A stretch of DNA of 64,000 nt from Entomomonas sp. E2T0 (GCF_025985425.1 NZ_CP094972.1:2963540-3027539), one strand, 5' to 3'. Positions 8,421 through 62,665 are shown, numbered from the stretch's first letter. Notes: generated by a model not told the origin, from the letters alone. Program-made: numbers and translations.

Positions 8421-8529
8421 GTGTTCATCATCAAATATATTAATTATCTTACGACAAAATAATGTTTAATCTGTTCTCAATAGTAACAGTTTAGCCATTT
8501 ATAATATCTTTGTATATTTTGTTAAATAA

Positions 8530-10480: not shown

Positions 10481-10550
10481 ACTGATATTTCCTAAAAGCT
10501 GTTTTGTTGTTTTAGAAAATACTACCTAAAAACCATTTAAATGTAAATCT

Positions 10551-10570
10551 AAATGATAACTATTTGCATT
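10551..10570. promoter_or_regulatory. candidate Fur box in the divergent hmuS / TonB-receptor promoter region
   Basis: AAATGATAACTATTTGCATT resembles the Fur consensus GATAATGATAATCATTATC (about 12 of 16 core positions). It is centred between the divergent heme uptake genes. Confidence 0.35.
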
Positions 10571-10637
10571 AAGTTTATTATTTATGTAAAGTTTGCCCTC
10601 CTAAAAATAATAGTTAATTTTTTATCAGGGAAAAAAT

Positions 10638-25342: not shown

Positions 25343-28300
25343 CTTCTTGATAAGAACTTTCTGTAGGTTTACCTGCTTTTACTTTCGTATCAATCGATTG
25401 TTTAGGGTGCATACCTACATGCTGTCCTAATAGCTTCAGCTCTGTAATAATATCTTGCATACGCTGATGATTACGTAAATCTAAATCTAGCTTTTTATCC
25501 ATGGTTTTTAACATAGGCATAAAGCTATATTCTAGTGTTTCAGCTAATGTAGTTAATACTGCGTCTAAACCAGGCACAGGTTGATTTACCACTTGAATAT
25601 TAGTTTCTGGCTTATCTTGTAAAGCCTCACTAATATGAGCTAATGGTTTTATCACTTTATCCCATGGGGCTGGCTCTGGCTCTTTATCCATTACGTCGGC
25701 TATATGGGCTATACCAGAAAGCATTTTATCCCAAGGCGCTGGTTCTGGTTTTTGTTTTAAAGCAGCTATCATTTCAGCAAACTGCCCTATTACACTTTCC
25801 CATGGTGCACGCTCAGGCTCAGGTCGTGTTGCAATATTTTTAACTCCCTCAGAAAGATCAACTAACTGAGCTACCACACGGTTACCAATATTGTCGTCAC
25901 CACCCATCGACTTATTACGCAAGAAATCACGTTTAATTTGTTCCCAACGCTCTTGTTGCTGCTCAGTCATATTACCGCGTATTTCAGCCAGTTTAAGTAG
26001 ATTCTCTTCAGCACCTGTCGTTAATAGCTGTGCTTCACCTTGATAATGGTCTTCAAGCAATTGCATCAACTCTTGCTCATTCATTACCGCCGTAATTTTT
26101 TCCGCCAGCTTATTCATATTACGATAACTACCTTGTAACTTGAATGGCGGTTCAACCCGATATTTATCAGCTTGGGCGGCACTAGCAATATATTGTAAAT
26201 TTACTCTGTATACTAAATCACGAGCTCTCATTAAGTGTTGTAAGGTAGCAACAATTTCATTAACTTCAGCTGTACTGTAATCATAACTTAATTCATTACT
26301 TGAGAAAGGCTTACCTTCAGCTTTATCAATAAAACGGTAAAGGTCTGCCATATCACGAGTAGCTAAAGGCGCTAGTATAGGATTAGAAGTTAAACAGTTT
26401 TCAAGATAGCTAAGACGGAATACATCTTCCATGCCGCCTAATACATCACCTAGATTATAGATATCCGCACGGTTAGCTAACATATCAGGAATCTTAAAGA
26501 CTTCACCAGACTCTGTATAAGGGTTACCTGCCATGATGACACAGAACTTTTTACCACGCATATCGTAGGTTTTAGTTTGGCCTTTCCAAACACCTTCAAT
26601 ACGACGAGTACCATCACAAAGCGAAATAAATTTTTGTAAAAACTCAGGGTTAGTATGTTGAATATCATCCACATACAGCATTACATTATTACCCATTTCC
26701 AATGCTAGATTAAGTTTTTCCAACTCTTGTCTAGCAGTAGCATTAGGTGCTTGTGCTGGATCGACTGAAGTAACTTCATGACCAATTGCAGGGCCATTAA
26801 TCTTCATAAAGATTAAACCTAAACGATTAGCCACATACTCCATCAAGGTTGTTTTACCATAACCGGGTGGAGAAATAAGCATTAATAACCCCATAAGGTC
26901 AGTACGTTTGTTCTCCCCCACTGTACCCATTTGTTTGGCTAAGTTATCGCCAATCACACCTAAGTAAATGTCATTGATTAAGCGGTTACGAACAAATGAA
27001 CTCAATGGCTTTGGCTTAAACTCTTCTAAACGCAGGGCATTTCTTTCCCGATTAATAACTTCTTGACGGTATTCTTGATAACGTTTGAAATTAGGTACAA
27101 ACACTTGTTGCTGATAACCAAAGCGCTCATAAAAATCATCAATCCCTAGAATCATTTTGGTATTTTGAATGCGCGAATGTTCTCCCATCAAACCTTCAAC
27201 AGAGAAACGCAAATCCATTTCTGTAAAACGCCAAATTACACTACTATCCAATAAGCTAAGTGCTACTGCTTCTGGAATATAGCTTTGTAAAGCAGTTAAG
27301 TCATCATCGGTTTCAATCACTACATCATTATCATTAGCCTGACAAAGTGCAGTAAACCATCTTTCCGCTAACTCCCAACGAGCTAAAGTACGGCCTTGTA
27401 AGTTAGCTAATGACTGTTGAAAACCAAGCCACATTTGTGCTGCTTCTAAACGTTTCTGCAGTGTTTCCATTAATTGTTTAGCATAACGAGTAAAGGTAAA
27501 CTCAACATTTACACCAGCAGAAAGCACAGCTACTAAATATTCAGCTGCCATCGAACGCTCTTGCTTATCAACAGGTAAGCCATGAACTTCTAAATAGCTA
27601 TCCATTGCTTGTGCAATTTCTATTTGTAAATCTTTTAATGCTTGTTGGCTTCCAAATAACTTAGCCATATTCATTGCAGTATGAGCACGTTCAGGCCATT
27701 TTTCAGCTTCAATATTTTCTTTCCAACGTCCCCAAAATAGCGTTGCAAAACCACGTGCTAATGGTGGGTAACGTAATAAACCAACACTACGATGTAATGG
27801 AATTAATTTACCTAACAATAAACAAGCATCATGATCATGAATGCCTCGCTCATAGCCATCACGATAACGAGGAGCTGCAAAATCACGTACCGTTTTTTCT
27901 AATTGAGCAGGATCTTTTAACTGTTGCTCTAACAGATCAATGCTTAAACCATCTTTATTTTGTTCTGCTGTTTGTAAAATAAGTCCAGCTAAATATTCAC
28001 CACGATATAAATCAGGTGATTCTGAGTCTGTAGTATATTGCCAATAGTCCCGTAGCTCATCTAACTCCGTAGCCCCTAATGATTCAAAATAATCAGTACC
28101 TGTTAAGTGAGTATAAAGTTGCTCACCTCGTGGCATAATGGTTAAATCAAGCTCTTGCGTATTAACACTAAAGCGATGGCGAGGGCCTAATTTAATAACA
28201 TTACCACCCGCTTCAAAGATTTCTGACTTATCTCTTAAACTACGAATAGCCTGATCTTTAGTTGATTTTAAACGGGCATCAAGATCATCTGCCCTTACGC

Positions 28301-30791
28301 TATCTTTTAACTCTCTTAATTTGTCTGATAATTCACGTAACTTTAAAGCTAAAGGGTCACCTGCAAAGAATGCATTTAACTCTTCTTGATTAGTGAAACG
28401 TTCTGTACGACGTTTCATACTCTCTAAAATACGTAGTGCAGCATCTTGTAGAGATTGTGCTTTACGTTGTCTTTCATCCAATAAAGCTTGTTTATGAGTA
28501 TCAAATGTCTCTAATAATTCTTCACGTTTAGCTAGAATATCAGTCAAAAATTCTTCATTATCACTAAACTGACTTTCTAACTCTTCCAACTGTACTAATA
28601 AACGAGATAATTGATCATCACAACGCTCAGGGTCAGTTGCTAAAGACAACGCATTAGTAATTGATTGTGTGAACAGTGTAAATTGAGCACCAAATTGGGC
28701 AACTGACTCATTACTTCGTAATGACTTACGACGTTGTTCAGACCTCGCTCTAGCTTGATTTAAGCGGCCATAAATGGCTGAAATAGCCTCTACAATTAAA
28801 GTACGTTGATTCGCATCATCAATTTTTAATGTACTCATCAATTGCGAAAGTGTGTCAAGATCATCGCCTAGCCCTTTTAAGCCAGTCAACGGTTCTTCTA
28901 ATTGCACAACTGTTGTAGCAGCTTGCGCTTCAGCATCTAAAGCTTCTAACTTTTCTGAGAATGGTTCTAATGCTTCTGGTGTTGATAAAAATACACCTGT
29001 TGCTTCTGAAATATGCAACTGTGATTTTTTTAACTGTTCTTCTAAAAAATCAACACGTGCCACATCCATATAACGGTAGTCACGTATTGTTAGTAAGTAT
29101 CCTAATTGCTTAGTGATAGCATGCAATGCATCTACATACTCCTGAATAGTTTCCCAACTATCTGGACGTAATGAAGTAATTAATGTTTTTTGTTGTTCTT
29201 CTGCTTGTACTAGTGTTTCGGCAGATTGGCGACGAATACTTTCTACTTTTTCATATTCATCTAACACCGCTTCACTAGTTGCAGCAATTTCTCGAACTGA
29301 TTGAACAATATCGCCGCAATGATTATCAGTCAACCAACTATAACTATCTAATAATTTACGAATATTTTCACGAATCAAGTTATAGTGATTAACTGATACA
29401 GATTTACTATCAATGTCTCGACCTAAACTATAAAGATCAGAAATACCTCTTACTAATTCTGGATTGCCAATACGCCCCCAAAATGTATTACGGGTAGGTT
29501 GTCTGGCAGCAAACTCTTCTGAAAGATAAGGTGTTTGCCATATTTGCATTGGATGAACACGAATAGGTTCACTACCTTCACTGGCAAAAATAACCATTTT
29601 GCCATCATCAAAACGCGCATAACCATGCCCCAAAATAGGATTTTGGAGGCGTCTTTCAATCATATTATAGGTAAATAACGCACTACGCCCTTCACTTGGT
29701 TCATAAAAGATATAAAGTACATCTTCACCATTAGGAGATTTTACAGAACGCTTGAATCGCATCCCCTCCATAGACTGATCAAACTTTTTATGCTCACCAT
29801 TTTGCAAATAATATCCACCAGGGAAAATAATGCCATGATCCTCTGGTAATTGAACACAAGACTGACCAATAGCATCTATTCGCTCTACATTTTGTGTAAT
29901 GGTGTTATAAACTAGATAACGCCATATATCTTCTCTATAAGGTAATATTTTTAATAAAACTAAACTACCTAATTGAGCATATTCGATGATCGCGTCATCT
30001 ACTGACTGTGTTTTATCCGTTACAGGTTCGCTATAGATACCTAAACCTGTTGTTGTATTATTCTCTACTTTAATGGTTAGATCACCACCTGTAGTTTCTA
30101 CAAACACAGTATCTAAAATATTAATATGAGGAAACTTACCATTTACCCGCATATCGCGGTTAGCTTTTTGCCACTCAAAATCATAAGGAGCAGGCAGAGC
30201 AATATCACGCTCGCCACGATTATCAATATAACTAATTTGCTTATGATCTGCAGACAGTGCCCAACGGAAAACACGGATATCCGTTATCTTGTCACCCATC
30301 TGGAAGCTAGCTAATAACTTACCATTATTTTGGGTCAGTTGTAATAAACGTGCATCCTTATAGTATGCATAAAGCTCTGTATAATCTCGTACAAAATTAG
30401 GGTCTTTTAAAAAAGTGCCCTCTAGCTCTACGTGCTCTACATCAAAGCCTTCTTCTACCTCAATTAATTTATACAGTGAAAAAACATCTTCAACTCGAGT
30501 TTCTTTTTTAAGGCCTAAAAATACATTGTATCCAAACAGTAACCAATCACCTGCGCGCACAATATCACGAGCAACACTATTATTTTCAGTACGAATACGA
30601 ATTCGCCCAATCACTTCCATGTCACTACGTTTAAACTCATCTAAACGCTTTTGATTAATAATTTCTATTTGCTTGCGTAATTGCTGACCTTGATCTTGTA
30701 AACGCTTATTTAACACTTCATAAGCGCCACCTTCAGCAACTGCTTTATCTAGTAATTCTTGCTCTTGTGCTACTGCTTGGGAATCAACCAT
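25332..30791 (-). CDS. giant (1819 aa) AAA+ ATPase-domain protein of unknown family
   Basis: A single P-loop core sits near residues 1300-1460: Walker A ISPPGYGKTT (nt 26847-26864), Walker B NVMLYVDD about 60 aa later, sensor-1-like CVIMAGNP, and Arg-rich LANRAD. This is the MoxR/dynein-type AAA+ order, not the split SMC/SbcC arrangement. A long coiled-coil-prone charged middle region spans roughly residues 500-870. Three tandem approximately 23-aa repeats ([KRE]PEP(ER)APW[ED]..) lie at residues 1656-1727. Confidence 0.6.
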   Translation of the reverse strand: MVDSQAVAQEQELLDKAVAEGGAYEVLNKRLQDQGQQLRKQIEIINQKRLDEFKRSDMEVIGRIRIRTENNSVARDIVRAGDWLLFGYNVFLGLKKETRVEDVFSLYKLIEVEEGFDVEHVELEGTFLKDPNFVRDYTELYAYYKDARLLQLTQNNGKLLASFQMGDKITDIRVFRWALSADHKQISYIDNRGERDIALPAPYDFEWQKANRDMRVNGKFPHINILDTVFVETTGGDLTIKVENNTTTGLGIYSEPVTDKTQSVDDAIIEYAQLGSLVLLKILPYREDIWRYLVYNTITQNVERIDAIGQSCVQLPEDHGIIFPGGYYLQNGEHKKFDQSMEGMRFKRSVKSPNGEDVLYIFYEPSEGRSALFTYNMIERRLQNPILGHGYARFDDGKMVIFASEGSEPIRVHPMQIWQTPYLSEEFAARQPTRNTFWGRIGNPELVRGISDLYSLGRDIDSKSVSVNHYNLIRENIRKLLDSYSWLTDNHCGDIVQSVREIAATSEAVLDEYEKVESIRRQSAETLVQAEEQQKTLITSLRPDSWETIQEYVDALHAITKQLGYLLTIRDYRYMDVARVDFLEEQLKKSQLHISEATGVFLSTPEALEPFSEKLEALDAEAQAATTVVQLEEPLTGLKGLGDDLDTLSQLMSTLKIDDANQRTLIVEAISAIYGRLNQARARSEQRRKSLRSNESVAQFGAQFTLFTQSITNALSLATDPERCDDQLSRLLVQLEELESQFSDNEEFLTDILAKREELLETFDTHKQALLDERQRKAQSLQDAALRILESMKRRTERFTNQEELNAFFAGDPLALKLRELSDKLRELKDSVRADDLDARLKSTKDQAIRSLRDKSEIFEAGGNVIKLGPRHRFSVNTQELDLTIMPRGEQLYTHLTGTDYFESLGATELDELRDYWQYTTDSESPDLYRGEYLAGLILQTAEQNKDGLSIDLLEQQLKDPAQLEKTVRDFAAPRYRDGYERGIHDHDACLLLGKLIPLHRSVGLLRYPPLARGFATLFWGRWKENIEAEKWPERAHTAMNMAKLFGSQQALKDLQIEIAQAMDSYLEVHGLPVDKQERSMAAEYLVAVLSAGVNVEFTFTRYAKQLMETLQKRLEAAQMWLGFQQSLANLQGRTLARWELAERWFTALCQANDNDVVIETDDDLTALQSYIPEAVALSLLDSSVIWRFTEMDLRFSVEGLMGEHSRIQNTKMILGIDDFYERFGYQQQVFVPNFKRYQEYRQEVINRERNALRLEEFKPKPLSSFVRNRLINDIYLGVIGDNLAKQMGTVGENKRTDLMGLLMLISPPGYGKTTLMEYVANRLGLIFMKINGPAIGHEVTSVDPAQAPNATARQELEKLNLALEMGNNVMLYVDDIQHTNPEFLQKFISLCDGTRRIEGVWKGQTKTYDMRGKKFCVIMAGNPYTESGEVFKIPDMLANRADIYNLGDVLGGMEDVFRLSYLENCLTSNPILAPLATRDMADLYRFIDKAEGKPFSSNELSYDYSTAEVNEIVATLQHLMRARDLVYRVNLQYIASAAQADKYRVEPPFKLQGSYRNMNKLAEKITAVMNEQELMQLLEDHYQGEAQLLTTGAEENLLKLAEIRGNMTEQQQERWEQIKRDFLRNKSMGGDDNIGNRVVAQLVDLSEGVKNIATRPEPERAPWESVIGQFAEMIAALKQKPEPAPWDKMLSGIAHIADVMDKEPEPAPWDKVIKPLAHISEALQDKPETNIQVVNQPVPGLDAVLTTLAETLEYSFMPMLKTMDKKLDLDLRNHQRMQDIITELKLLGQHVGMHPKQSIDTKVKAGKPTESSYQEDAE

Positions 30792-30914: not shown

Positions 30915-33086
30915 TTAATCATCAGTTTTTGGTGTGTCTTTTTTACCACTACTCGCTACTCGCTCAGCAGTTGCTGATAACAACTGTTGAATTGCTCCTT
31001 GAGCAACAGAGCTGCTATTTACAAAGCCATCAAGTGACTTGCCCACAGCCAATGCTTTAGAGAATTTCTCAAAGAATTCGCCTTCACCACCCACAACATC
31101 AATCTTCGTCTTAGCCAGACCAGCCGCCAATACTTCTGCTTGATCTTTAGCAATTTCTTTATTAGCAGCAATTGCAGTGATTGCTTGTTCGAAGGTTTTT
31201 TCCAATTGTAAACGGAACTCTTCATGGGCACGCGCACTATCAGAAAGAGCATTAAGTGAAGTAAATTTCTCAGCAAGACCCGTTGCTTCTGCTCTCATAC
31301 GTTTTAATAGTACTTCCGCTTCAGCATCACCTACATCACGGCTTACTTTGGCCTTCACGATACCTACTTGTTCTTCACCACGTGCTTGAGCAGATAGCTT
31401 TTCTTCCATCACTTTAGCTTCTACCAAGCCTTCTTTTTCCTTGGCAACAGCAGCAGCTTCAGTCACACGAGCTTCAACAAAACCTTGCTCTTCCTTACCT
31501 TTTGCTTCAGATAGCATAAGCTCCATTTGTACTTTAGCTTCAGCAAGACCTTGCTTCTCATTAGCATCTGCTTTAAATTCAATAACACGCGCCTCTGCTA
31601 AACCTTTTTCTTCAACAGCCTTAGCTTCTGCTATACCTCTTTCAGCCGTTAATTTTGCTTCTACTAAGCCTTCTTTTTCACGTACAGAAGCTTGTACTTC
31701 ACGAACTCTTGCATCCGCCAAACCAGGTGCCGCACGCTCTGCTTGAACACCTTCTGCCAAACGTTTTTGTGACTCCGCTTTTTTCGCAGCCGCCTCTAGT
31801 TCAGCCTGTGCCATATTATTAATTTCAACTGCTTTATGTTTAGATGTCTCTGCATCAGCTTCTGCTTGCTTCACTTGGCGAACTAAATCACGTTCTGCTT
31901 CTGCTTGTGCATCAATAATACTTACTTGTTTAGAGCGGTCAGCTTCTGAAACTTGACGTACTTCTTTAATAGCTTCTTCTTCCTTAGCTACCGTACGTTC
32001 AACAGCCACACGATCACGAATAATATTAGCAATCGCTGTACGCTCTGCTTCTAAGGCTTTTTCTTTATCAATACGTTGTAATTCAACTTCACGCTCACGC
32101 TTAACAATGGCTTCTTGTTGAGCTTGAGTTACACCTTCCTCTTGTTCAACTAACACACGCTTTTTATTTAACTCGGTAACTTCCAACTCACGTTGAGTAT
32201 TAATATCTGCTTTACCAATTTCTTGTTCAGCTTGTTTTTGAGCCACTTCTGCTTTAGTACGCTCTTCAGCTTGAACCTTCTGAGTTTCAGCTTCTTCACG
32301 TGCTTTAGTAGTCTCAATTTCACGTTTTTGTCTATTTTCAGCATCAGCTCTTTGACGCTCTAAAGCTAAAGTAGCCTCTTGAGTTTCAACATTTTTCTTA
32401 GTAATCGCTAAATCTTTATCGCGATCCAATTCATTCGTTTTAACAATTTCAGAAGAAGTTCTTTCAACAATCTTACGGATACCTTCTGCATCCATAATAT
32501 TAGTATTCTTTAAATGCTCAATTGGTGTTTGATCTAAGTAGTCAATCGCAGCATCTTCTAGTGAATAACCATTAAGATCTTCACCGATTGCTTGCATAAT
32601 TTCATCACGAAAACGCTTACGATCAGCAAATAACTCTTCAAAATTAAATTTCTTACCTACTGTTTTTAATGCTTCAGAAAATTTAGCATTAAATAAAGTA
32701 GCTACTGCTGTATGATCTGAGGCACGGTCAGCGCCTACTGATTTAGCTACTTTCAACACATCCTCTTGAGTGGCATTTACTTTAAGATAAAAAGCTACTG
32801 TAATATCAGCACGAATATTATCTTTACAGATTAAACCCTCTGTACCACGGCGATCAATATCCAAAGTAATCAAAGAAATTTTCATAAATTCCTTTTTATA
32901 AATCACTGGATAAACTAATGCACCAGTAAAAGTTACTTTAGGTATTGAAGATAAGGTATTAACAATCAATGCTGTACCTTGTGGCACTTTAATATAAAAA
33001 GACTTTACTATAAGTACACTAACTATAATAAGCCCTACAACAGCCGCAGCTATTATGCCAACAACAGCTAAAATTGACGAAAACAT
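30915..33086 (-). CDS. flotillin/SPFH (band-7) family protein, YqiK-like, with a long repetitive Glu/Ala/Lys tail
   Basis: N-terminal TM helix, then an SPFH domain (…TLDIDRRGTEGLICKDNIRADITVAFYLKV…). Roughly 350 aa of heptad-like EA-rich repeats follow (EKEGLVEAKLTAERGIAEAKAVEEKGLAEARV…). 723 aa. Confidence 0.8.
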   Translation of the reverse strand: MFSSILAVVGIIAAAVVGLIIVSVLIVKSFYIKVPQGTALIVNTLSSIPKVTFTGALVYPVIYKKEFMKISLITLDIDRRGTEGLICKDNIRADITVAFYLKVNATQEDVLKVAKSVGADRASDHTAVATLFNAKFSEALKTVGKKFNFEELFADRKRFRDEIMQAIGEDLNGYSLEDAAIDYLDQTPIEHLKNTNIMDAEGIRKIVERTSSEIVKTNELDRDKDLAITKKNVETQEATLALERQRADAENRQKREIETTKAREEAETQKVQAEERTKAEVAQKQAEQEIGKADINTQRELEVTELNKKRVLVEQEEGVTQAQQEAIVKREREVELQRIDKEKALEAERTAIANIIRDRVAVERTVAKEEEAIKEVRQVSEADRSKQVSIIDAQAEAERDLVRQVKQAEADAETSKHKAVEINNMAQAELEAAAKKAESQKRLAEGVQAERAAPGLADARVREVQASVREKEGLVEAKLTAERGIAEAKAVEEKGLAEARVIEFKADANEKQGLAEAKVQMELMLSEAKGKEEQGFVEARVTEAAAVAKEKEGLVEAKVMEEKLSAQARGEEQVGIVKAKVSRDVGDAEAEVLLKRMRAEATGLAEKFTSLNALSDSARAHEEFRLQLEKTFEQAITAIAANKEIAKDQAEVLAAGLAKTKIDVVGGEGEFFEKFSKALAVGKSLDGFVNSSSVAQGAIQQLLSATAERVASSGKKDTPKTDD

Positions 33087-45029: not shown

Positions 45030-47558
45030 TTAAAAGCGATAGCTGTAGCCTAAGTTGAGTTGTCGTTGTTGAAATCTACTACCTTTAGTATATTCTGCAT
45101 CTAGGTAGATATTATGATTTTTATTAAGGTTAATGCTTCCACCTATACCACCACTTCTCCAATTACCTTTAAGCTTATAGTTATGCTTGCTTCCATTCAA
45201 TCTATAGGCTGCAAGGCCATCCATTTCTCGAAAGAAGTTGGTTTTTAGGTAAATATTAAAAGGTGTTAGGCCTGTTGATTGATAACCCAGATTTAGCCCG
45301 AGCCTACCTTGAGTAGTATGGTAATCACTTAAGTATATTTTAAGGCCATTACTAGCATTGATATGAACACTACTTTGATAACCATATGTAAGTTGCGCTT
45401 GTGGCTCAATATAAACTCCCTCTTTTTGTTGATTAAAGATTATTCGCTTACCTATTTCTAAAGAGGCGGTATAACCTTGAGTTTTGCCATTACCTTTAAT
45501 TTCCATCCCAGTTGTATCTTTGACATTAAAATGGTTATGGATATAGTTGTATTTGAGTAGGGTATCTAGATAGATACCATTATTATTATAATAAGTGGCA
45601 TAGAAACCCACATGGTAGTTTTTTACTGTACCATTTCCTTCTTGATAATTAGGATTACCTTGCGTATAACCTACGACACCACCAACTATTAAATCAGACT
45701 TGTTAAAGTCAAGTTTGGTATCTATACCACCTTGAGTGCCTATATAGGGCATATCGAAACCAGCAACCCCTTGCCCACTAAATAAATTTAATTTACCACC
45801 ATAGCTTCTTAACCAGAAACCTGTATTAGTGTTTTCAGGTTGATTTCGAAGATCACCTAATCGTTGTAGTAGGGTTTGGTTTTCTATATAGTTAGAAAAG
45901 TAACCTGTATTAAAGAAACTAACGCCTGCATTGGCGGTGCTTGTTAATGCTTTACCAGTCGCATAAAGTTTCCAATTTGTGCCATCTTTAATAAGTCTAT
46001 ATTGGTAACCACCTGCTTCAACCGCATTTGTTAGAGAAAAATCACTTATTCCATCCTCTGTTTTTACAACAATTAATTCTTCAGTACCATTAGTTGGACT
46101 TGAAGCATTATTATTAATAGATAATTTATGAGAGCCAGAACTATTATCCGTAATATTTAATAAGTCACCAGTTAAGTTACCAACATCTGCTTTCATTGCA
46201 AAAGTACCTGCACCTGAAAGGTCTTTGGTTGTAAGGGTAATGGGTGTAGAGAATGAGCTGGAGTTAAATTGCACAATACCGCCTGTATTTTCCATAGACT
46301 GTATGCTATTATCGGTAGTAAATATCCATTTACCTGATTTGCTTAGATTAAGTTCATTAACATTGGTTGTATTACCATTAAGTTCAGAATTAGTATTAAT
46401 TGATAAATTAAGTATTCCACCTGTAACTGAAGTAGCTGTACCATTGGCTACAGTATTATTGTTAAGCGTGATATTGGCTTCACCGCTCCTAGAAACCGCT
46501 ATTGCTCTACCAATTCCGCTATTTAAGATGGTTGAGTCAAGATCTATATTAGTCTTTCCACTTAAAACCGCTATTCCTACTGAAGATTTAGATGATAAGC
46601 TGGTATTAGAAACCGTTACAGTCCCAGTATTTGCTTGAGTCATTAAAGCATAAGCATCTTGTCCTAATACTTCAATTATGGAATTTTTTACATTAGCATT
46701 ACCTAAAACTCCCACTGAAACCCCATTAGATTGTGTACCTATAGTTTTAATCGTTGTTCTATCCAATGAAATTGTTGCATTGTTTACAGCAGAGCCAAAT
46801 GCAAAGGTGCCGCTGGTTTCTATGGTTGTATCGGTTACATTAATACCCCCCCCTTCTGTCGCATATATTCCAAAAGCATCATCACCAATAGTGTTAATTT
46901 GTGAATTAGTTAGGTCTATTGCTCCTGAAGCTCTAGTGTGAACACCATAACCTTGTATTCCTGTTGTATTAATAATTACATTATTAGCTGAAACTAATGA
47001 GCTATTATTAGAGTATTGACCTACACCCATACTAAACAAAGCCGCTGAGTCGTAACCTGTCGTTTTAATAATAGTCCCGTTTTTTAAATCTACTTTACCT
47101 CCTTGATAAGCCAATACACCATGATTTTGATTATTTTGAACTGTTATAGAACCTCCATCCATAGTAATTGAAGATCTCTTAGTCGTTGATTCACCATTAG
47201 CCAAAATACCATATCCTGATCCTGATCCTGCGGGAGCAGTTAAAGTAATGGTTGTATCCTTTAAATTAATTTCTCCACCACTAGCAGTGTAAGCTCCAGA
47301 AGTTTGTTGTAAACTAGAACTTAAATTTAAATCAAGACCATTAATGACAGAATTAGAGGAAGAAACAAGAGCAGAATTATTCAACCCTGTAGTAGTTGAT
47401 TCATAAGTCTTTGACGATAAATTATGTGCTCTTCCGTCATTTGCTACATAGTTGGCTGAATAACTAGGATTGTTAATTAATAAATAGCTGATAAACAAAG
47501 GGGCATAATTAAATTTTTTATTTATTTGTTTCATAATAATTATCCTTATAATAAGCAA
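45030..47558 (-). CDS. autotransporter (type Va) with a beta-helical, pectate-lyase-like passenger
   Basis: 842 aa with an extended signal peptide and a Thr/Ser/Gly/Asn-rich repetitive passenger. The C-terminal beta-barrel ends …LNLGYSYRF. Confidence 0.8.
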   Translation of the reverse strand: MLIIRIIIMKQINKKFNYAPLFISYLLINNPSYSANYVANDGRAHNLSSKTYESTTTGLNNSALVSSSNSVINGLDLNLSSSLQQTSGAYTASGGEINLKDTTITLTAPAGSGSGYGILANGESTTKRSSITMDGGSITVQNNQNHGVLAYQGGKVDLKNGTIIKTTGYDSAALFSMGVGQYSNNSSLVSANNVIINTTGIQGYGVHTRASGAIDLTNSQINTIGDDAFGIYATEGGGINVTDTTIETSGTFAFGSAVNNATISLDRTTIKTIGTQSNGVSVGVLGNANVKNSIIEVLGQDAYALMTQANTGTVTVSNTSLSSKSSVGIAVLSGKTNIDLDSTILNSGIGRAIAVSRSGEANITLNNNTVANGTATSVTGGILNLSINTNSELNGNTTNVNELNLSKSGKWIFTTDNSIQSMENTGGIVQFNSSSFSTPITLTTKDLSGAGTFAMKADVGNLTGDLLNITDNSSGSHKLSINNNASSPTNGTEELIVVKTEDGISDFSLTNAVEAGGYQYRLIKDGTNWKLYATGKALTSTANAGVSFFNTGYFSNYIENQTLLQRLGDLRNQPENTNTGFWLRSYGGKLNLFSGQGVAGFDMPYIGTQGGIDTKLDFNKSDLIVGGVVGYTQGNPNYQEGNGTVKNYHVGFYATYYNNNGIYLDTLLKYNYIHNHFNVKDTTGMEIKGNGKTQGYTASLEIGKRIIFNQQKEGVYIEPQAQLTYGYQSSVHINASNGLKIYLSDYHTTQGRLGLNLGYQSTGLTPFNIYLKTNFFREMDGLAAYRLNGSKHNYKLKGNWRSGGIGGSINLNKNHNIYLDAEYTKGSRFQQRQLNLGYSYRF

Positions 47559-57524: not shown

Positions 57525-58073
57525 ATGATGGCAAAATATTGGGTACTCTTACTTAGTTTTATTACTTTACTAAGCTGTGAACAAAAAAATACGCCTACAG
57601 ATACCAATAAAATGTCACCAAAAACTAACAGTCCTAGTTATAAAACAAATGCCACCAACAGTGCATGGACTACAAAAACTCAAAATACAAATAAAGGTAT
57701 GATTTATTCAGCCTCTCTACCTGCCTCAATGATCGATACTAGCTTTGGCAATCCTATAACACTAAATATTCTCTGCAATCAAGGAGCTACTGAACTTACT
57801 ATTAACTGGGGACAACATGTACCCCGTGGCAGTAAAATGTCTGTTTACTTACAAACAGACACCCAACAATTTGCTAACACTGAATGGCGATATCTTAAAG
57901 ACACTGCAACAGCTTATGCTTATCAACCATACGATATTCTACCTTCACTCATTAAATCGAATAAACTAACTGTACGCACTACTTTCTTTCAAGGTAGTAT
58001 TGCTACAGCAAAATTTGATCTATCTGGCGTTACTCAAGCAGTTAAAGATATCCGCAAAGCTTGTTATTGGTAA
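57525..58073 (+). CDS. hypothetical lipoprotein
   Basis: Lipobox …TLLSC at the end of the signal peptide. Thr/Asn-rich linker, then a beta-rich domain ending in a Cys (…KACYW). Confidence 0.4.
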   Translation: MMAKYWVLLLSFITLLSCEQKNTPTDTNKMSPKTNSPSYKTNATNSAWTTKTQNTNKGMIYSASLPASMIDTSFGNPITLNILCNQGATELTINWGQHVPRGSKMSVYLQTDTQQFANTEWRYLKDTATAYAYQPYDILPSLIKSNKLTVRTTFFQGSIATAKFDLSGVTQAVKDIRKACYW

Positions 58074-58288
58074 CTGCTTAAGCAATTAAATAAGCTATTA
58101 TTTGTAACAACTGATACATACAAAGCTGTACAAAATTACTATCTATCACTTAGTAGTACTATATTTGCTTAACTAAACATAATAACTATTTACTTTTTGC
58201 CTGCATAGATCATCATTGATCTTGGCTAAGATTATAGTTTATTTATTAAAATATAATGATTTACAGAATAAATTTAAATTGTAATTGA

Positions 58289-61200
58289 GTGACTATGAAT
58301 TCGAAATTAAATATTTCTAAGCTTCCCTTGGCAACCTTATATATAGGCATAGATATAGGTTCTACTACTGTTAAAGTATTGGTTATGGATGAGCAGCATA
58401 AAATACTTTATAAAACCTATACTCGCCATTTCTCCGAAGTTAGAGATACTGTAATTCGTTGTATAAATGAGCTAGCTGAAACTAACTTATTTAACTTAGC
58501 TTCCCCAGCCACATTAGTTGTAACGGGCTCAGGTGGTATAGATGTAGCTGAAATTATTGGTTACCCCTTTGTGCAAGAAGTCATTGCCTGTGCTAAAGCA
58601 GTAGAAACGTTTATTCCAGAAACAGATGTGTCTATTGAGCTAGGTGGTGAAGACGCCAAAATAACATTCTTTAGCAATGGCATAGAACAACGCATGAATG
58701 GTTCATGTGCAGGTGGTACAGGTGCATTTATTGACCAAATGGCAAGTTTACTAAAAACAGATGCTATTGGTTTAAACGAATTAGCCGAAAATGCTACCAA
58801 TATTTACCCCATTGCAGCGCGTTGTGGTGTATTTGCTAAAACAGATGTACAGCCCTTACTCAATGAAGGCGTCGCCAAAAAGGATATTGCTCTTTCTATT
58901 TTTCAAGCAGTAGCACAGCAAACCATTAGCGGCCTTGCTTGTGGTCGTAAAATTAAGGGGCAAGTAGTATTTTTAGGTGGTCCCCTTAATTTTTTACCTG
59001 AACTTAAAAAACGCTTTATTGAAGTGCTTCAGCTTACTGAGCAAGATATTGTTAAACCAAAAGACAGTGAATTGTTTGTAGCAATGGGCGCAGCATTACA
59101 TGGCGATAGCAGTAAAGCAACACCACTAAAACAAATTTTTAATTCTTTTCAAAATCTTAGTAATCAACAACAGCGAGAAATTAATACATTACGCCCACTA
59201 TTTCTCAATCAACAAGAACGACAAGCATTTGAACAACGCCACAATAACTCTAATGTAGTACGTGGTGATTTACAAACTTACCAAGGACCTCTATTTCTTG
59301 GCCTAGACTGTGGATCGACGACTACTAAAGCAACATTAATAGGTGAAAACTGTGAATTACTTTATAGCTATTATGGTAGTAATGAAGGTGATCCTTTAAA
59401 AATAGTCAGTAATATTTTACAAGAAATCTACGCACAATTACCTGCCACAGCTTCTATTGCTGCTTCTTCGGTGACAGGCTATGGCGAGGCACTTATTCGA
59501 GAAGCTTACAAACTAGATACCTCAGAAGTAGAAACTATTGCTCACTATAAAGCAGCCAATCATTTTCTACCTGGTGTTGATTGTATCCTTGATATTGGTG
59601 GGCAAGATATGAAATGCCTACGTGTTAAAGATGGCATTATTGATAACATCCTACTAAATGAAGCCTGCTCATCTGGCTGTGGCTCTTTTATTGAAACCTT
59701 TGCCCAAGCAGTGGAAACACCTATTAATGAGTTTGCTAAAATTGCCTTGGATTCAGCAGCACCTGCTGATTTAGGTTCTCGCTGCACAGTCTTTATGAAC
59801 TCCAGTGTTAAACAGGCTCAAAAAGAGGGGGCAACGGCTGCTGATATTTCAGCAGGGCTGTCCTATGCTGTTATTAAAAATGCGCTTATTAAAGTCATGA
59901 AAGTTAAAAATCCCCAAGACTTAGGGGAAAAAATTATTGTACAAGGTGGTACTTTCTATAATGACTCCGTACTGAGGGCATTCGAACTTATTTCAGGACG
60001 AGAACCTATTCGTCCAGATATTGCGGGATTAATGGGTGCATTTGGTTCAGCTATCATTGCCAAAGAACGTTGGCAAGGAATTGAAAACTCCACCATGCTT
60101 AACCAACGAAGTATCGCCAACTTTTCTGTTAAACATAATATGGTGCGCTGTAAGGTCTGTACTAACAATTGCTCAATGACACTGAATCGTTTTTCAGATG
60201 GTCGTAAATTTATTACCGGCAATCGTTGTGAACGTGGCTTAGGAAAAAAACAAGCAGCCAACGCTATCCCAGACCTCTACACCTATAAATATGAACGTAT
60301 TTTCAACTACATTCCTCTAGAAAAAGAACAGGCTAAATATGGCACTATTGGTATTCCAAGAGTGCTTAATATGTATGAAAACTATCCGCTATGGTTTACG
60401 TTTTTAACAGAATTAGGATTTAGAGTAGAACTTTCAGCAGAATCCTCTAAACCACTTATGGAAAAAGGGTTAGATACCCTCCCCTCAGATTCAATTTGCT
60501 ATCCAGCTAAATTAGTTCATGGTCATATTATTGATTTAATAGAAAAAGATATAAAAACAATTTTTTATCCTTGTGTACCTTTTGAAAACAAAGAGTATGC
60601 AGATAGCCATAACCATTTTAATTGCCCTATAGTAACCTCTTATCCTGAACTAATTCGTAACAATATAGATTTACTTAAAGAACAAAATATTAATTTTATG
60701 CAGCCTTTCTTATCACTAGAAGATAAGAAAAAACTAGCTAAACGCCTAGTGGATATATTTACGCCCTTTAATATCAACTCCTCTATTATTCGCAAAGCAT
60801 TAGATAAAGCATGGCACGAGCAAGAACAGTTTAAACAAGATATTCAAGAAAAAGGCTTAGAAGTTCTCGAATATATGGAGGAAACAGGAACACATGGTAT
60901 TGTTTTATCAGGACGGCCTTATCATATAGACCCTGAAATTCATCATGGTATTCCTCAAGTTATTACTACTCTGGGTATGGCCGTTTTAACAGAAGATTCT
61001 ATTGCTTTTTTAGGCAAACTAAATGAACCTTTACGTGTAGTAGACCAGTGGACATACCATGCTCGTCTCTATAGAGCTGCCGCTACAGTCGCTAACAAGA
61101 AGAATCTTGATCTTATTCAACTAAACTCTTTTGGCTGTGGATTGGATTCTGTAGTAACTGATCAAGTACAAGAAATTCTAGAACAACATGGCAAAATTTA

Positions 61201-62602
61201 TACAGGAATTAAAATCGATGAAGTTAATAGTTTAGGAGCAGCTCGTATTAGAATACGCTCTCTTAAAGCAGCTTTACAAGAACGTGAAAAAAATCAAGCG
61301 ATAACCCAAGCTGTACGTATTTATGAAAAACCAAAATATAAACGTTCTAGCTTTACTGAAAAAATGCGAGAAGACTATACTATCCTTGCACCACAAATGT
61401 CCCCTATGCATTTTCAATTCTTTACTCCAGCTTTTGAAGCATGTGGTTATAATTTTAAGGTATTGGAAGAAGTACCTACTAATGCTATTGATGAAGGATT
61501 ACGTTTTGTAAATAATGACGCTTGTTATCCCTCTATTATCGTTATAGGACAATTAATTAATGCCCTCAAATCAGGCAAATATGACATTAACAAAACAGCT
61601 GTAATGATCTCCCAAACAGGTGGAGGATGTCGAGCTACCAACTATATCAGCTATTTACGTAAAGCATTATATGATGCAGGTTTCGCAGATGTACCTATAC
61701 TTTCATTTAATACTTTAGGTATGGAAAAACATCAAGGATTTAAACTATCACTCCCCCTTATTAATCGGTTAATGATGTCTGTTGTTTATGGTGATGTGTT
61801 AATGCAAACGTTATTCGCTACACGTCCCTATGAATTAACAAAAGGTTCAGCTGAAGCATTGTATTTTAAGTGGGTAAATTGTTGCAAAGAATCACTTAAC
61901 AAAGCTGATTTTAAAACTTTTAAACAAAACATCTATGATATTGTTAAGGAGTTTGATCAGTTACCTTTATTAGATATCAAAAAACCACGTGTCGGCCTAG
62001 TTGGAGAAATTCTTGTTAAATATCATCCAACAGCTAATAATGATCTAGTAAGAATTATTGAACAAGAAGGCTGTGAAGCTGTTATGCCTGGCCTTATGGA
62101 CTTTTTACTGTACTGTGCCTATGATTATGACTTTAACCATAAATTCTTATCTAAAAGTAAACTAGCGGCTTTAGCCGCTCAAGCCGCTATTATAGGTATG
62201 GAATACTATCGTAAAGATATGCGTAAAGCCTTACAAAATAGTAAACGTTTCCATGCACCTCATACCATTGATGAACTAGCTTTTGGTGCAGCACCTATTC
62301 TCTCTCGTGGTAATCAAACGGGTGAAGGCTGGTTCTTAACAGCTGAAATGATTGGCCTAATTAATGAGGGCGCAAGCAATATTATTTGTATGCAACCTTT
62401 TGCCTGCTTACCTAATCATATTACAGGAAAAGGTGTTATCAAAGCACTCAAAGAGCGTTATCCGCAGGCTAATATTACAGCTGTAGACTATGACCCTGGA
62501 GCCTCTGAAGTAAACCAACTAAATCGCATTAAATTGATGCTTTCTGTTGCCTTTAAAAATATGGAAAATCAACAGCAACTCTTTCAAGCAACTGTAATAT
62601 AA
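58289..62602 (+). CDS. fused BadF/BadG/BcrA/BcrD-type double activase + 2-hydroxyacyl-CoA-dehydratase-like protein (YjiL/YjiM-type fusion)
   Basis: Two tandem acetate/sugar-kinase-fold ATPase modules with the activase N-terminal motif (GIDIGSTTVKVLV at residues ~20-32 and GLDCGSTTTKATL at ~338-350). Each has the expected distal Cys: …ARCGVFAKTDV and …SRCTVFMNSSV. Next comes a Cys cluster, CKVCTNNCSMTLN…GNRCERG (nt 60144-60238), then a C-terminal region with conserved cysteines (CYPAKLVHGH, FGCGLDSV, CMQPFACLPNH) typical of dehydratase HgdA/B-like components. Confidence 0.7.
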   Translation: MTMNSKLNISKLPLATLYIGIDIGSTTVKVLVMDEQHKILYKTYTRHFSEVRDTVIRCINELAETNLFNLASPATLVVTGSGGIDVAEIIGYPFVQEVIACAKAVETFIPETDVSIELGGEDAKITFFSNGIEQRMNGSCAGGTGAFIDQMASLLKTDAIGLNELAENATNIYPIAARCGVFAKTDVQPLLNEGVAKKDIALSIFQAVAQQTISGLACGRKIKGQVVFLGGPLNFLPELKKRFIEVLQLTEQDIVKPKDSELFVAMGAALHGDSSKATPLKQIFNSFQNLSNQQQREINTLRPLFLNQQERQAFEQRHNNSNVVRGDLQTYQGPLFLGLDCGSTTTKATLIGENCELLYSYYGSNEGDPLKIVSNILQEIYAQLPATASIAASSVTGYGEALIREAYKLDTSEVETIAHYKAANHFLPGVDCILDIGGQDMKCLRVKDGIIDNILLNEACSSGCGSFIETFAQAVETPINEFAKIALDSAAPADLGSRCTVFMNSSVKQAQKEGATAADISAGLSYAVIKNALIKVMKVKNPQDLGEKIIVQGGTFYNDSVLRAFELISGREPIRPDIAGLMGAFGSAIIAKERWQGIENSTMLNQRSIANFSVKHNMVRCKVCTNNCSMTLNRFSDGRKFITGNRCERGLGKKQAANAIPDLYTYKYERIFNYIPLEKEQAKYGTIGIPRVLNMYENYPLWFTFLTELGFRVELSAESSKPLMEKGLDTLPSDSICYPAKLVHGHIIDLIEKDIKTIFYPCVPFENKEYADSHNHFNCPIVTSYPELIRNNIDLLKEQNINFMQPFLSLEDKKKLAKRLVDIFTPFNINSSIIRKALDKAWHEQEQFKQDIQEKGLEVLEYMEETGTHGIVLSGRPYHIDPEIHHGIPQVITTLGMAVLTEDSIAFLGKLNEPLRVVDQWTYHARLYRAAATVANKKNLDLIQLNSFGCGLDSVVTDQVQEILEQHGKIYTGIKIDEVNSLGAARIRIRSLKAALQEREKNQAITQAVRIYEKPKYKRSSFTEKMREDYTILAPQMSPMHFQFFTPAFEACGYNFKVLEEVPTNAIDEGLRFVNNDACYPSIIVIGQLINALKSGKYDINKTAVMISQTGGGCRATNYISYLRKALYDAGFADVPILSFNTLGMEKHQGFKLSLPLINRLMMSVVYGDVLMQTLFATRPYELTKGSAEALYFKWVNCCKESLNKADFKTFKQNIYDIVKEFDQLPLLDIKKPRVGLVGEILVKYHPTANNDLVRIIEQEGCEAVMPGLMDFLLYCAYDYDFNHKFLSKSKLAALAAQAAIIGMEYYRKDMRKALQNSKRFHAPHTIDELAFGAAPILSRGNQTGEGWFLTAEMIGLINEGASNIICMQPFACLPNHITGKGVIKALKERYPQANITAVDYDPGASEVNQLNRIKLMLSVAFKNMENQQQLFQATVI

Positions 62603-62620
62603 ATGGATAAAATAATACAT

Positions 62621-62665
62621 AAGACTAATACAGCTTCATCAATTAAGTATTAGTCTTATTTTTTG
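62621..62665 (+). terminator. rho-independent terminator after the 1437-aa gene
   Basis: AAGACTAATA…TATTAGTCTT 10-bp stem followed by ATTTTTTGTATTT. Confidence 0.55.

What the first reader, a model, noticed from the sequence alone, without database searches (positions are those of the whole stretch)
58289..62602. 1437-aa single-polypeptide fusion of two radical-dehydratase activase ATPases with a dehydratase-like Cys-rich module, next to a c-di-GMP phosphodiesterase
In characterised systems (HgdC plus HgdAB, BcrAD plus BcrBC, YjiL plus YjiM) the [4Fe-4S]-bridged activase and the dehydratase or reductase are separate proteins. Here two activase modules appear fused in tandem and are followed by a CxxCxxxC…C cluster and a ~750-aa region with conserved cysteines. 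This predicts an ATP-driven, low-potential electron-injecting enzyme made of a single polypeptide whose substrate is unknown. I see no CoA-transferase or acyl-CoA genes beside it. The family exists in databases as uncharacterised 'CoA-substrate-specific enzyme activase' fusions. Its physiological reaction is, to my knowledge, undetermined. The CSS-EAL protein immediately downstream is separated from it by a terminator at 62621-62665.
Basis: partly seen in the sequence, partly recalled or inferred. Interest (0 to 1): 0.55.

Follow-up and report, generated by a model that had tools for sequence, protein, structure and literature searches.

The report
Fused PlsA–PlsR anaerobic ether-lipid (plasmalogen) synthase
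This 1435-residue protein of an insect-gut Entomomonas is the single-gene form of the bacterial anaerobic plasmalogen synthase PlsA/PlsR, an ATP-driven iron-sulfur enzyme that turns an ordinary membrane-lipid ester bond into an ether bond; its reaction has been known since 2021, so the finding is real but is a new member of a known family.

Summary
The ORF and its architecture are real. It has two tandem activase ATPase modules, a 4-Cys motif and two Cys-bearing catalytic modules, then a hairpin terminator and a CSS-EAL gene.

The claim that the reaction is undetermined is out of date. Using published cloning primers I recovered the Clostridium perfringens plsA-plsR amplicon (4199 bp, bounded by both primers). 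That amplicon makes E. coli produce plasmalogens.

- Window residues 17-997 are 50% identical to PlsA over its whole length.
- Residues 1020-1419 are 42% identical to PlsR without a gap.
- Pfam hits are the same in both.
- Size (1435 aa) matches the validated single-gene PlsA proteins of Enterococcus faecalis (1415 aa) and Lactococcus cremoris (1436 aa).

Neighbouring genes are not conserved, so the EAL gene is incidental.

Most likely function is ATP-coupled reduction and dehydration of the sn-1 acyl ester of phospholipids to a vinyl ether. A saturated alkyl ether, as made by the homologue Ger, cannot be excluded by sequence.

Verdict: new member of a known kind, low to moderate interest.

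The parts
58295..62602 (+). plsA (fused plsA-plsR) coding sequence, 1435 aa plus stop. An in-frame GTG at 58289 would give 1437 aa.
   Evidence: ORF. 97% identical to the 1435-aa Entomomonas sp. E2T0 protein. Collinear with C. perfringens PlsA then PlsR.
58343..59101 (+). Act1: first activase (ASKHA ATPase) module, aa 17-269. Phosphate motifs GIDIGSTT and ELGGEDAK. Cluster cysteines C138 and C177.
   Evidence: PF01869 at 6.4e-26. Aligned to HadI 4eht and HgdC 1hux, with C138 and C177 opposite HgdC C127 and C166.
59297..60067 (+). Act2: second activase module, aa 335-591. Motifs GLDCGSTT and DIGGQDMK. Cluster cysteines C458 and C497.
   Evidence: PF01869 and TIGR00241. Aligned to HadI, HgdC and MbdQ, with C458 and C497 opposite HgdC C127 and C166.
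60149..60229 (+). Four-cysteine motif C619-x2-C622-x3-C626-x18-C645 at the head of the first catalytic module. Candidate relay Fe-S (or metal) site.
   Evidence: Sequence. Invariant in 34 close homologues. At least 90% conserved in 27-50%-identical relatives that lack the activase modules. Low model confidence here.
60308..61285 (+). Red1: first reduction/dehydration module, aa 672-997 (DUF2229 at aa 684-903). Corresponds to the C-terminal third of C. perfringens PlsA. Invariant C735, C777 and C948.
61286..61351 (+). Linker, aa 998-1019. [quoted passage not shown]
   Evidence: The PlsA alignment ends at aa 997 and the PlsR alignment starts at aa 1020. The model is disordered at aa ~1002-1011.
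61352..62551 (+). Red2: PlsR-like second reduction/dehydration module, aa 1020-1419. Invariant C1077, C1112 and C1371. Distant internal duplicate of Red1.
   Evidence: 42% identity to PlsR aa 12-411 with no gaps, 3e-118. Same weak N-terminal DUF2229 hit as PlsR. Red1/Red2 similarity around the D-x-CYP motif. Invariant cysteines.
62619..62665 (+). Intrinsic terminator of plsA: 13-bp stem, 15-nt loop, U run.
   Evidence: RNA fold of -15.8 kcal/mol, z = -4.94, 0 of 200 shuffles as stable.
58074..58294 (+). Upstream intergenic region (221 bp, AT-rich), presumed promoter. No regulator site identified.
   Evidence: Sequence. Only a weak minus-strand promoter-like match lies here. No FNR/Anr-box match within 2 mismatches in this interval. 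No TetR gene upstream.

Best explanation
The gene encodes the single-polypeptide form of the anaerobic ether-lipid synthase PlsA-PlsR. It most likely converts the sn-1 acyl ester of already assembled membrane glycerophospholipids (PE, PG) into a 1Z-alkenyl (vinyl) ether, that is, plasmalogens, without O2.

Proposed mechanism. Shown here:
- The domain order.
- All conserved ligand cysteines.
- The fold class.
- Collinearity with validated PlsA and PlsR.

Inferred by analogy with the HAD/BCR 'archerase' enzymes and the scheme proposed for PlsA/PlsR:
1. Act1 and Act2 fold as a covalently linked pseudo-heterodimer. It clamps one [4Fe-4S] cluster through C138/C177 and C458/C497.
2. After reduction by ferredoxin or flavodoxin, ATP binding and hydrolysis drive a conformational change. 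This delivers a very low-potential electron, possibly through the 4-Cys site (C619, C622, C626, C645).
3. The electron reaches the clusters held by three cysteines each in Red1 (C735, C777, C948) and Red2 (C1077, C1112, C1371).
4. Two such electrons plus protons reduce the ester carbonyl to a hemiacetal-level intermediate, which is dehydrated to the vinyl ether.

The enzyme needs no dedicated partner gene. Single genes of this type suffice in E. coli.
For: (1) Identification of the reference. The 22-nt forward cloning primer for C. perfringens plsA-plsR (PMC12838417, Table S6) hit 11 metagenome contigs. In L004 the two ORFs span 6694-10892, which is 4199 bp, the size of the fragment Jackson et al. 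expressed. Both primers bound this span.

(2) Similarity to that reference.
- Window aa 17-997 against PlsA aa 5-975: 50% identity, 993 bits.
- Window aa 1020-1419 against PlsR aa 12-411: 42% identity, no gaps, 3e-118.

(3) Pfam pattern is identical in the reference and in the window protein: PF01869 twice, PF09989, and a weak second PF09989 hit at the start of PlsR/Red2.

(4) Gene size. The 4308 bp here compares with 4248 bp and 4311 bp for the single-gene plsA of E. faecalis and L. cremoris, both shown to give plasmalogens in E. coli.

(5) Identity ranks among 60 full-length family representatives.
- The 15 sequences most similar to C. perfringens PlsA+PlsR (45-51%) are exactly the window protein and its group.
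- Every other sequence compared is at or below 44%.
- Next to the window group, Bifidobacteriaceae (Parascardovia, 51%) and C. perfringens (47%) are the closest.

(6) Cofactor residues.
- Activase cluster cysteines and ATP motifs are present in both modules.
- Six cysteines are invariant and four nearly invariant down to 27% identity.

(8) Context.
- No conserved neighbours across six contexts, and no CoA-metabolism genes. This fits a self-sufficient enzyme acting on membrane lipid.
- A TetR gene sits upstream in Pleomorphomonas, as reported for facultative anaerobes (PMC9702350).
Against: - There are no lipid data for Entomomonas.
- Strain E2T0 was isolated and grown on plates with no mention of anaerobic incubation (PMC9872594), whereas this family is oxygen-sensitive and mostly active anaerobically (PMC12838417, PMC13159169).
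- Workers in this field state that vinyl-ether (PlsA) and alkyl-ether (Ger) producers cannot be told apart by sequence (PMC11868695).
- I could not obtain a Ger sequence to compare.
- Only one experimentally validated sequence pair was compared directly.
- Deep nodes of my NJ tree are unresolved: bootstrap 5-25% for the grouping with C. perfringens.
- PF06050, reported for the E. faecalis architecture, is not detected here. It is not detected in C. perfringens PlsR either.
- No TetR regulator and no Anr/FNR box lie upstream, so anaerobic induction is unsupported.
- The number and type of Fe-S clusters and the electron path are inference.
Confidence: 0.75

Rival explanations
1. It is a Ger-type glycerol ester reductase. 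The machinery and substrate are the same, but the reaction goes on by two further electrons, so the product is a saturated sn-1 alkyl ether rather than a plasmalogen.
For: - Ger of T. maritima and D. alkenivorans are full-length homologues with the same BcrAD-BcrAD-DUF2229 core, and they give 1-O-alkylglycerols in E. coli only anaerobically (PMC13159169).
- Ger homologues are reported in Proteobacteria.
- Published statement that the two products cannot be predicted from sequence (PMC11868695).
Against: - The only validated sequences I could compare are plasmalogen synthases, and the match is full-length at 50% and 42%.
- The window group is the closest set to C. perfringens PlsA+PlsR among the family representatives.
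- The small PF06050 hits used to describe Ger architectures are absent.
- Validated plasmalogen formers span Clostridia, Lactobacillales and Bifidobacteria. A Bifidobacteriaceae representative is 51% identical to the window protein.
Confidence: 0.17
2. One reading: an orphan fused activase-dehydratase/reductase. It would act on an unknown, non-lipid substrate such as an acyl-CoA, an aromatic compound, or a small molecule in the manner of the double-cubane cluster protein (DCCP).
For: - Database names such as '2-hydroxyacyl-CoA dehydratase' and 'CoA-substrate-specific enzyme activase'.
- Fold-level similarity to HadBC, BzdNO, MbdON and DCCP.
- Six invariant cysteines would also fit a DCCP-like double cubane.
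Against: - Identity to those structures is only 8-12%.
- A family profile finds none of them by sequence.
- Identity to PlsA and PlsR is 50% and 42% over the full length.
- No CoA-transferase, CoA-ligase or aromatic-pathway genes appear in any of seven neighbourhoods.
- The database names are automatic transfers from the activase domain.
Confidence: 0.06

Closest known systems
PlsA + PlsR of Clostridium perfringens (CPE1194/CPE1195; UniProt Q8XL48/Q8XL47), the anaerobic plasmalogen synthase
   Same: Same order of modules (Act1, Act2, 4-Cys motif, Red1, then Red2). 50% and 42% identity over the full length. Same Pfam hits. Same conserved cysteines.
   Different: There it is two genes separated by a stop codon and 8 nt. 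Here it is one polypeptide with a 22-residue linker. The host there is a strict anaerobic Gram-positive bacterium. Here it is a Gram-negative insect-gut member of the Pseudomonadaceae.
Single-gene PlsA of facultative anaerobes and bifidobacteria (E. faecalis EF1327/Q835P9, 1415 aa; L. cremoris, 1436 aa; B. longum subsp. suis, 1639 aa), validated in E. coli (PMC12838417)
   Same: Fused Act1-Act2-Red1-Red2 architecture and near-identical length. Stand-alone gene.
   Different: The TetR/AcrR gene described upstream in facultative anaerobes is absent here.
Ger, glycerol ester reductase (T. maritima Tmari_0479/AGL49404; D. alkenivorans SHJ90043)
   Same: Homologous full-length fusion with the BcrAD x2 + DUF2229 core. 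Acts on the sn-1 ester of membrane lipids. Active anaerobically.
   Different: The product is a saturated alkyl ether. The described architectures carry extra short PF06050/PF09989 hits, which are not seen here. No direct sequence comparison was possible.
2-Hydroxyacyl-CoA dehydratases with their activators (HadI-HadBC, HgdC-HgdAB)
   Different: Those are separate proteins, with a homodimeric activator, a CoA-thioester substrate and a catalytic (recycled) electron. Here everything is fused, the two activase halves differ, the substrate is a lipid ester, and the reaction is a net two-electron reduction. Catalytic modules share only about 10% identity and give no PF06050 hit.
Class I benzoyl-CoA reductases (BcrABCD, BzdNOPQ, MbdONQP)
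   Different: Four separate subunits, an aromatic CoA substrate and no DUF2229 signature.
Double-cubane cluster protein DCCP with DCCP-R (6eno, 7yyl/7yzm)
   Different: DCCP is a homodimer of one 420-aa subunit carrying an [8Fe-9S] cluster, and its physiological substrate is unknown. Here there are two divergent modules with three cysteines each. Cluster type was not determined.

Membership tests
PlsA/PlsR anaerobic plasmalogen synthase | Two tandem BcrAD_BadFG activase modules, each with the two [4Fe-4S]-bridging cysteines and the ATP motifs | tested here: met
   PF01869 twice. C138/C177 and C458/C497 align with HgdC C127/C166.
PlsA/PlsR anaerobic plasmalogen synthase | Full-length collinear similarity to an experimentally validated PlsA, including the 4-Cys motif and the DUF2229 module | tested here: met
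   50% identity, aa 17-997 against PlsA 5-975, 993 bits. The reference locus was authenticated by both cloning primers and by the 4199-bp span.
PlsA/PlsR anaerobic plasmalogen synthase | Presence of the PlsR (second reduction/dehydration) module | tested here: met
   42% identity, aa 1020-1419 against PlsR 12-411, ungapped, 3e-118.
PlsA/PlsR anaerobic plasmalogen synthase | Stand-alone gene or two-gene operon that needs no further dedicated partner | tested here: met
   Own terminator. Neighbours differ in 5 of 6 related contexts.
PlsA/PlsR anaerobic plasmalogen synthase | Formation of sn-1 alk-1-enyl (vinyl ether) phospholipids in the host or on heterologous expression | not testable with these tools
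   Needs lipid analysis. No published lipid data for Entomomonas were found.
PlsA/PlsR anaerobic plasmalogen synthase | Accessory feature in facultative anaerobes: a TetR/AcrR regulator directly upstream (PMC9702350) | tested here: not met
   The upstream gene is a VasI-like lipoprotein. A TetR gene is present upstream in Pleomorphomonas. This feature is not defining.
Ger (glycerol ester reductase) | Conserved BcrAD-BcrAD-DUF2229 core | tested here: met
   This core is shared with PlsA, so it does not discriminate.
Ger (glycerol ester reductase) | C-terminal pattern of short PF06050 (HGD-D) and PF09989 hits (architectures BBDHDDH and BBDHDHDH) | tested here: not met
   No PF06050 hit at E<=10. 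Only one weak extra PF09989 hit, as in C. perfringens PlsR.
Ger (glycerol ester reductase) | Closer sequence relationship to T. maritima or D. alkenivorans Ger than to validated PlsA | not tested
   No Ger sequence could be retrieved.
Ger (glycerol ester reductase) | Saturated 1-O-alkyl ether product | not testable with these tools
   Needs lipid analysis. The literature says sequence cannot decide.
2-hydroxyacyl-CoA dehydratase / class I benzoyl-CoA reductase (HAD/BCR) superfamily | Activase-type ATPase with a bridging-cluster cysteine pair | tested here: met
2-hydroxyacyl-CoA dehydratase / class I benzoyl-CoA reductase (HAD/BCR) superfamily | Catalytic subunits recognisable as HGD-D (PF06050) or by sequence similarity to solved HadBC, HgdAB or BzdNO | tested here: not met
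   No PF06050 hit. A family profile against PDB sequences finds nothing.
2-hydroxyacyl-CoA dehydratase / class I benzoyl-CoA reductase (HAD/BCR) superfamily | Catalytic subunit fold | tested here: met
2-hydroxyacyl-CoA dehydratase / class I benzoyl-CoA reductase (HAD/BCR) superfamily | CoA-thioester substrate, shown by a CoA-transferase, CoA-ligase or pathway context | tested here: not met
   None in the window or in six related loci.
Double-cubane cluster protein (DCCP) | Six-cysteine ligation of an [8Fe-9S] cluster in one subunit | tested here: inconclusive
   Six invariant cysteines exist, but they are split three and three between two divergent modules.

The most novel reading that the evidence does not exclude
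The tightly conserved proteobacterial clade may have diverged from the Gram-positive PlsA enzymes in product or substrate. This clade is 67-86% identical across Gamma-, Beta-, Alpha- and Epsilonproteobacteria and myxobacterial MAGs, and it is monophyletic in 100 of 100 bootstraps. For example, it might make saturated ethers, or reduce another ester-linked envelope lipid of diderm bacteria. It might also work under micro-oxic conditions in a bacterium that can be grown on ordinary agar plates (no anaerobic incubation is mentioned for strain E2T0). A milder version is that Entomomonas makes plasmalogens. To my knowledge that would be the first case in Pseudomonadales.
Probability: 0.1. Interest if true: 0.55.

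Novelty: new member of a known kind. Interest (0 to 1): 0.22.

Why it matters
The result corrects a database-level blind spot. Thousands of these ~1430-aa proteins are still labelled '2-hydroxyacyl-CoA dehydratase' or 'CoA-substrate-specific enzyme activase', although the family's reaction, ester to ether in membrane lipids, has been known since 2021.

For this genome it predicts that an insect-gut pseudomonad can make ether lipids, probably plasmalogens, when oxygen is low. That is a testable trait which could matter for gut colonisation and for acid or oxidative stress tolerance.

For enzymology, the single-chain form remains attractive because it is a complete 'archerase' in one polypeptide. 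No structure and no in vitro study of the catalytic modules exists: there is no sequence match in the PDB. This Entomomonas copy offers nothing over the already expressed Enterococcus and Lactococcus enzymes, unless it proves oxygen-tolerant.

Tried and rejected
Searches that failed or gave little:
- The E. faecalis plsA forward primer (20-mer) as an exact pattern in genome contigs gave 0 hits, so no direct comparison with the fused validated enzyme was possible.
- The Jackson et al. 2021 paper (PMC7812594) is not held. Its content is taken from papers that describe it.
- Ger sequences could not be obtained. The Science Advances supplements are not held, the bioRxiv supplements contain no sequences, and cluster look-ups of 20 distant representatives gave almost no organism names.
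It returned mainly Clostridia and Lachnospiraceae at 52-62% identity, with no validated species.

Analyses that were uninformative or negative:
- A family profile against PDB sequences found nothing.
- The NJ tree has unresolved deep nodes (bootstrap 5-25%), so I rely on identity ranks, not topology, for the link to C. perfringens.
- The search for an Anr/FNR box upstream found none in 58074-58294.
- The consensus terminator scanner missed the real hairpin, which RNA folding confirmed.

Ideas considered and rejected:
- A functional link with the CSS-EAL gene. It is conserved only in the 86%-identical relative.
- A functional link with the upstream VasI-like lipoprotein. It is syntenic only within Entomomonas-like contigs.

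Full report
**Observation.**

The + strand carries one uninterrupted ORF from 58289 (GTG) to 62602. An ATG two codons downstream (58295) gives 1435 aa. This is the length of the closest database protein, WP_264746143 of Entomomonas sp. E2T0, at 97% identity. I take 58295 as the start.

The window's G+C content (about 36%) matches that genome's 35.9% (PMC9872594). The window therefore comes from an Entomomonas, an insect-gut member of the Pseudomonadaceae.

Domain searches give the following.
- Pfam finds BcrAD_BadFG twice (aa 17-269 and 335-582) and DUF2229 (aa 684-903, E 1e-91).
- NCBIfam finds the acyl-CoA dehydratase activase domain TIGR00241.
The last ~420 residues give only a weak second DUF2229 hit.

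The other details of the finding also hold.
- The motifs ARCGVF and SRCTVF and the Cx2Cx3C...C motif are present.
- The terminator is real: a 13-bp stem, a 15-nt loop and a U run, z = -4.9.
- The next gene encodes a CSS-motif/EAL protein that is cut by the window end.

**What it is.**

A full-text search for DUF2229 led to the ether-lipid literature.
- In Clostridium perfringens the two-gene operon plsA-plsR converts diacyl phospholipids into plasmalogens (sn-1 vinyl ethers) without oxygen, and it is sufficient for this in E. coli (Jackson et al. 2021, as described in PMC9702350, PMC10191378, PMC8788747 and PMC12838417).
- In facultative anaerobes and bifidobacteria one gene encodes the whole enzyme. 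The Enterococcus faecalis (4248 bp), Lactococcus cremoris (4311 bp) and Bifidobacterium longum (4920 bp) genes each gave plasmalogens in E. coli (PMC12838417).
- A homologue named Ger, from Thermotoga maritima and Desulfatibacillum alkenivorans, gives saturated sn-1 alkyl ethers (PMC13159169).

To test membership I needed a validated sequence, and obtained one as follows.
- The 22-nt gene-specific part of the published C. perfringens forward primer matched 11 metagenome contigs exactly.
- In L004 the primer marks a TTG start at 6694. Two ORFs follow, of 975 and 420 aa.
- The span 6694-10892 is 4199 bp, the size of the fragment Jackson et al. expressed. It ends with the reverse primer.

Comparison with these two proteins gave the following.
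- Window residues 17-997 are 50% identical to PlsA residues 5-975 (993 bits).
- Residues 1020-1419 are 42% identical to PlsR residues 12-411 with no gap (3e-118).
- The two alignments follow one another. They leave only a 22-residue linker where C. perfringens has a stop codon, 8 nt and a start codon.
- The Pfam hits of PlsA and PlsR are the same as those of the window protein.

The window ORF is therefore a PlsA-PlsR fusion of the kind already validated in other bacteria.

**Family and relatives.**

The family is very large.
- More than 8000 hits appeared in the word-indexed search. All listed hits are about 1430 aa and 62-97% identical. They include Betaproteobacteria, Campylobacterota, a Pleomorphomonas and Clostridia.
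- The C-terminal 836 residues alone find 1196 cluster representatives (50% identity clusters) at E<=1e-30.

I aligned 60 full-length sequences.
- The proteobacterial sequences form a clade in 100 of 100 NJ bootstraps. Deeper nodes are unresolved.
- By identity, the 15 sequences closest to C. perfringens PlsA+PlsR (45-51%) are exactly the window protein and its group. All other sequences compared are at or below 44%.
- Seen from the window protein, the next closest after its own group are a Bifidobacteriaceae representative (Parascardovia, 51%) and C. perfringens (47%).

In the crude tree the proteobacterial clade sits beside single-chain clostridial proteins. This suggests an old transfer between Firmicutes and Proteobacteria. 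I treat that as a suggestion only.

**Anatomy and likely mechanism.**

The two activase modules:
- Both carry the ASKHA phosphate motifs: GIDIGSTT and ELGGEDAK in the first, GLDCGSTT and DIGGQDMK in the second.
- In alignments to HgdC (1hux), C138 and C177 (Act1) and C458 and C497 (Act2) lie opposite Cys127 and Cys166. From my own knowledge of the HgdC structure (Locher et al. 2001), these are the ligands of the [4Fe-4S] cluster that bridges the two subunits of the activator dimer.
- The two fused modules can thus form a pseudo-dimer around one cluster, as the unlike ATPase subunits of benzoyl-CoA reductases do. Act1 scores best with MbdP and Act2 with MbdQ.

The catalytic part:
- It begins with a 4-Cys motif (C619, C622, C626, C645). 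This motif is also kept in relatives that lack activase modules, so it belongs to the catalytic part.
- Two modules follow, and they are distant duplicates of each other.
- Each module has three cysteines that are invariant down to 27% identity: C735, C777 and C948 in the first, and C1077, C1112 and C1371 in the second.

Structure:
- An AlphaFold2 model of residues 600-1435 has pLDDT 80.7 and pTM 0.80.
- Sequence identity to these is only 8-12%, and a family profile finds no PDB sequence.
- No structure of the catalytic modules of this family has therefore been solved.

From this I infer the mechanism proposed for PlsA/PlsR, in the terms used for HAD and BCR enzymes.
1. Reduced ferredoxin or flavodoxin loads the activase cluster.
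2. ATP hydrolysis drives injection of low-potential electrons into the catalytic clusters.
3. The sn-1 ester carbonyl of a phospholipid is reduced by two electrons and protonated.
4. Water is lost to give the vinyl ether.

The fold, the ligand residues and the collinearity are shown here. The cluster types, the electron path and the stoichiometry are inferred.

**Context.**

The gene has its own terminator. Its neighbours are not conserved.
- An 86%-identical relative keeps the whole neighbourhood, including the CSS-EAL gene.
- A 79% relative keeps only the upstream DUF4124 and VasI-like genes.
- 75%, 73%, 67% and 62% relatives share nothing with the window.

None of the contexts has CoA-transferase or acyl-CoA genes. 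This fits an enzyme that works on membrane lipid and needs no partner.

Pleomorphomonas has a TetR gene directly upstream, as described for facultative anaerobes (PMC9702350). The window has none, and there is no Anr/FNR-like box in the 221-bp upstream region. Regulation is unknown.

**Plasmalogen or alkyl ether.**

The authors who defined Ger state that sequence homology cannot tell whether a homologue makes alkenyl or alkyl ethers (PMC11868695). I could not retrieve a Ger sequence.

In favour of plasmalogen:
- The full-length match to validated PlsA and PlsR.
- The identity ranking described above.
- The lack of the PF06050 fragments used to describe Ger architectures.
- The wide taxonomic spread of validated plasmalogen formers.

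I put about 0.75 on an ether-lipid synthase making plasmalogen. I put about 0.17 on a Ger-like saturated product and about 0.06 on a different substrate.

**Verdict.**

This is a new member of a known family in an unusual host. Plasmalogen synthesis has not, to my knowledge, been shown in Pseudomonadales. Interest is low to moderate.

Noticed in passing
window 25332-30791 (-) and 30915-33086 (-): An 1818-aa protein with DUF3686 ('ATPase involved in DNA repair', 3e-198), DUF7902 and a dynein-type AAA domain. Next to it lies a 722-aa protein with no Pfam hit at all. This could be a two-gene defence or repair module.
   Followed up: no
P0165 (homologue found; name): A full-length 1415-aa member of the PlsA family is annotated in the anaerobic protist Barthelona sp. 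PCE (KAL0229736.1, on a 2.17-Mb contig). This suggests a eukaryotic copy acquired by gene transfer.
   Followed up: no
window 57525-58073 (+): A small VasI-like protein with a lipoprotein signal (lipobox LLSC) lies directly upstream of plsA. It stays syntenic with plsA in two Entomomonas-like contigs (L012; L013 at 32% identity) but not in more distant relatives.
   Followed up: partly
L015 4055-4906 (Pleomorphomonas carboxyditropha): A TetR-family regulator sits directly upstream of the plsA homologue and in the same direction. This matches the arrangement reported for E. faecalis EF1326/EF1327. It is absent from the window.
   Followed up: partly
one search hit list (representatives P0138, P0158, P0170, P0174, P0185, P0186, P0198, P0224, P0230, P0249): Many family members are 810-850-aa proteins. 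They consist of the 4-Cys motif plus both catalytic modules, without any activase. The family therefore occurs in at least three gene arrangements: all fused, PlsA + PlsR, and activase separate from a fused Red1-Red2.
   Followed up: partly
window 13535-18972 (+) and 45030-47558 (-): A TamA/TamB translocation-assembly pair and a pertactin-type autotransporter are present. A pertactin autotransporter also lies near plsA in the related contig L013.
   Followed up: no
window, whole: Matches to the FNR/Anr consensus TTGAT-N4-ATCAA with up to 2 mismatches number 91, against 67.5 +/- 7.5 in shuffles, and no shuffle reached 91. None lies upstream of plsA. The excess was not examined.
   Followed up: no
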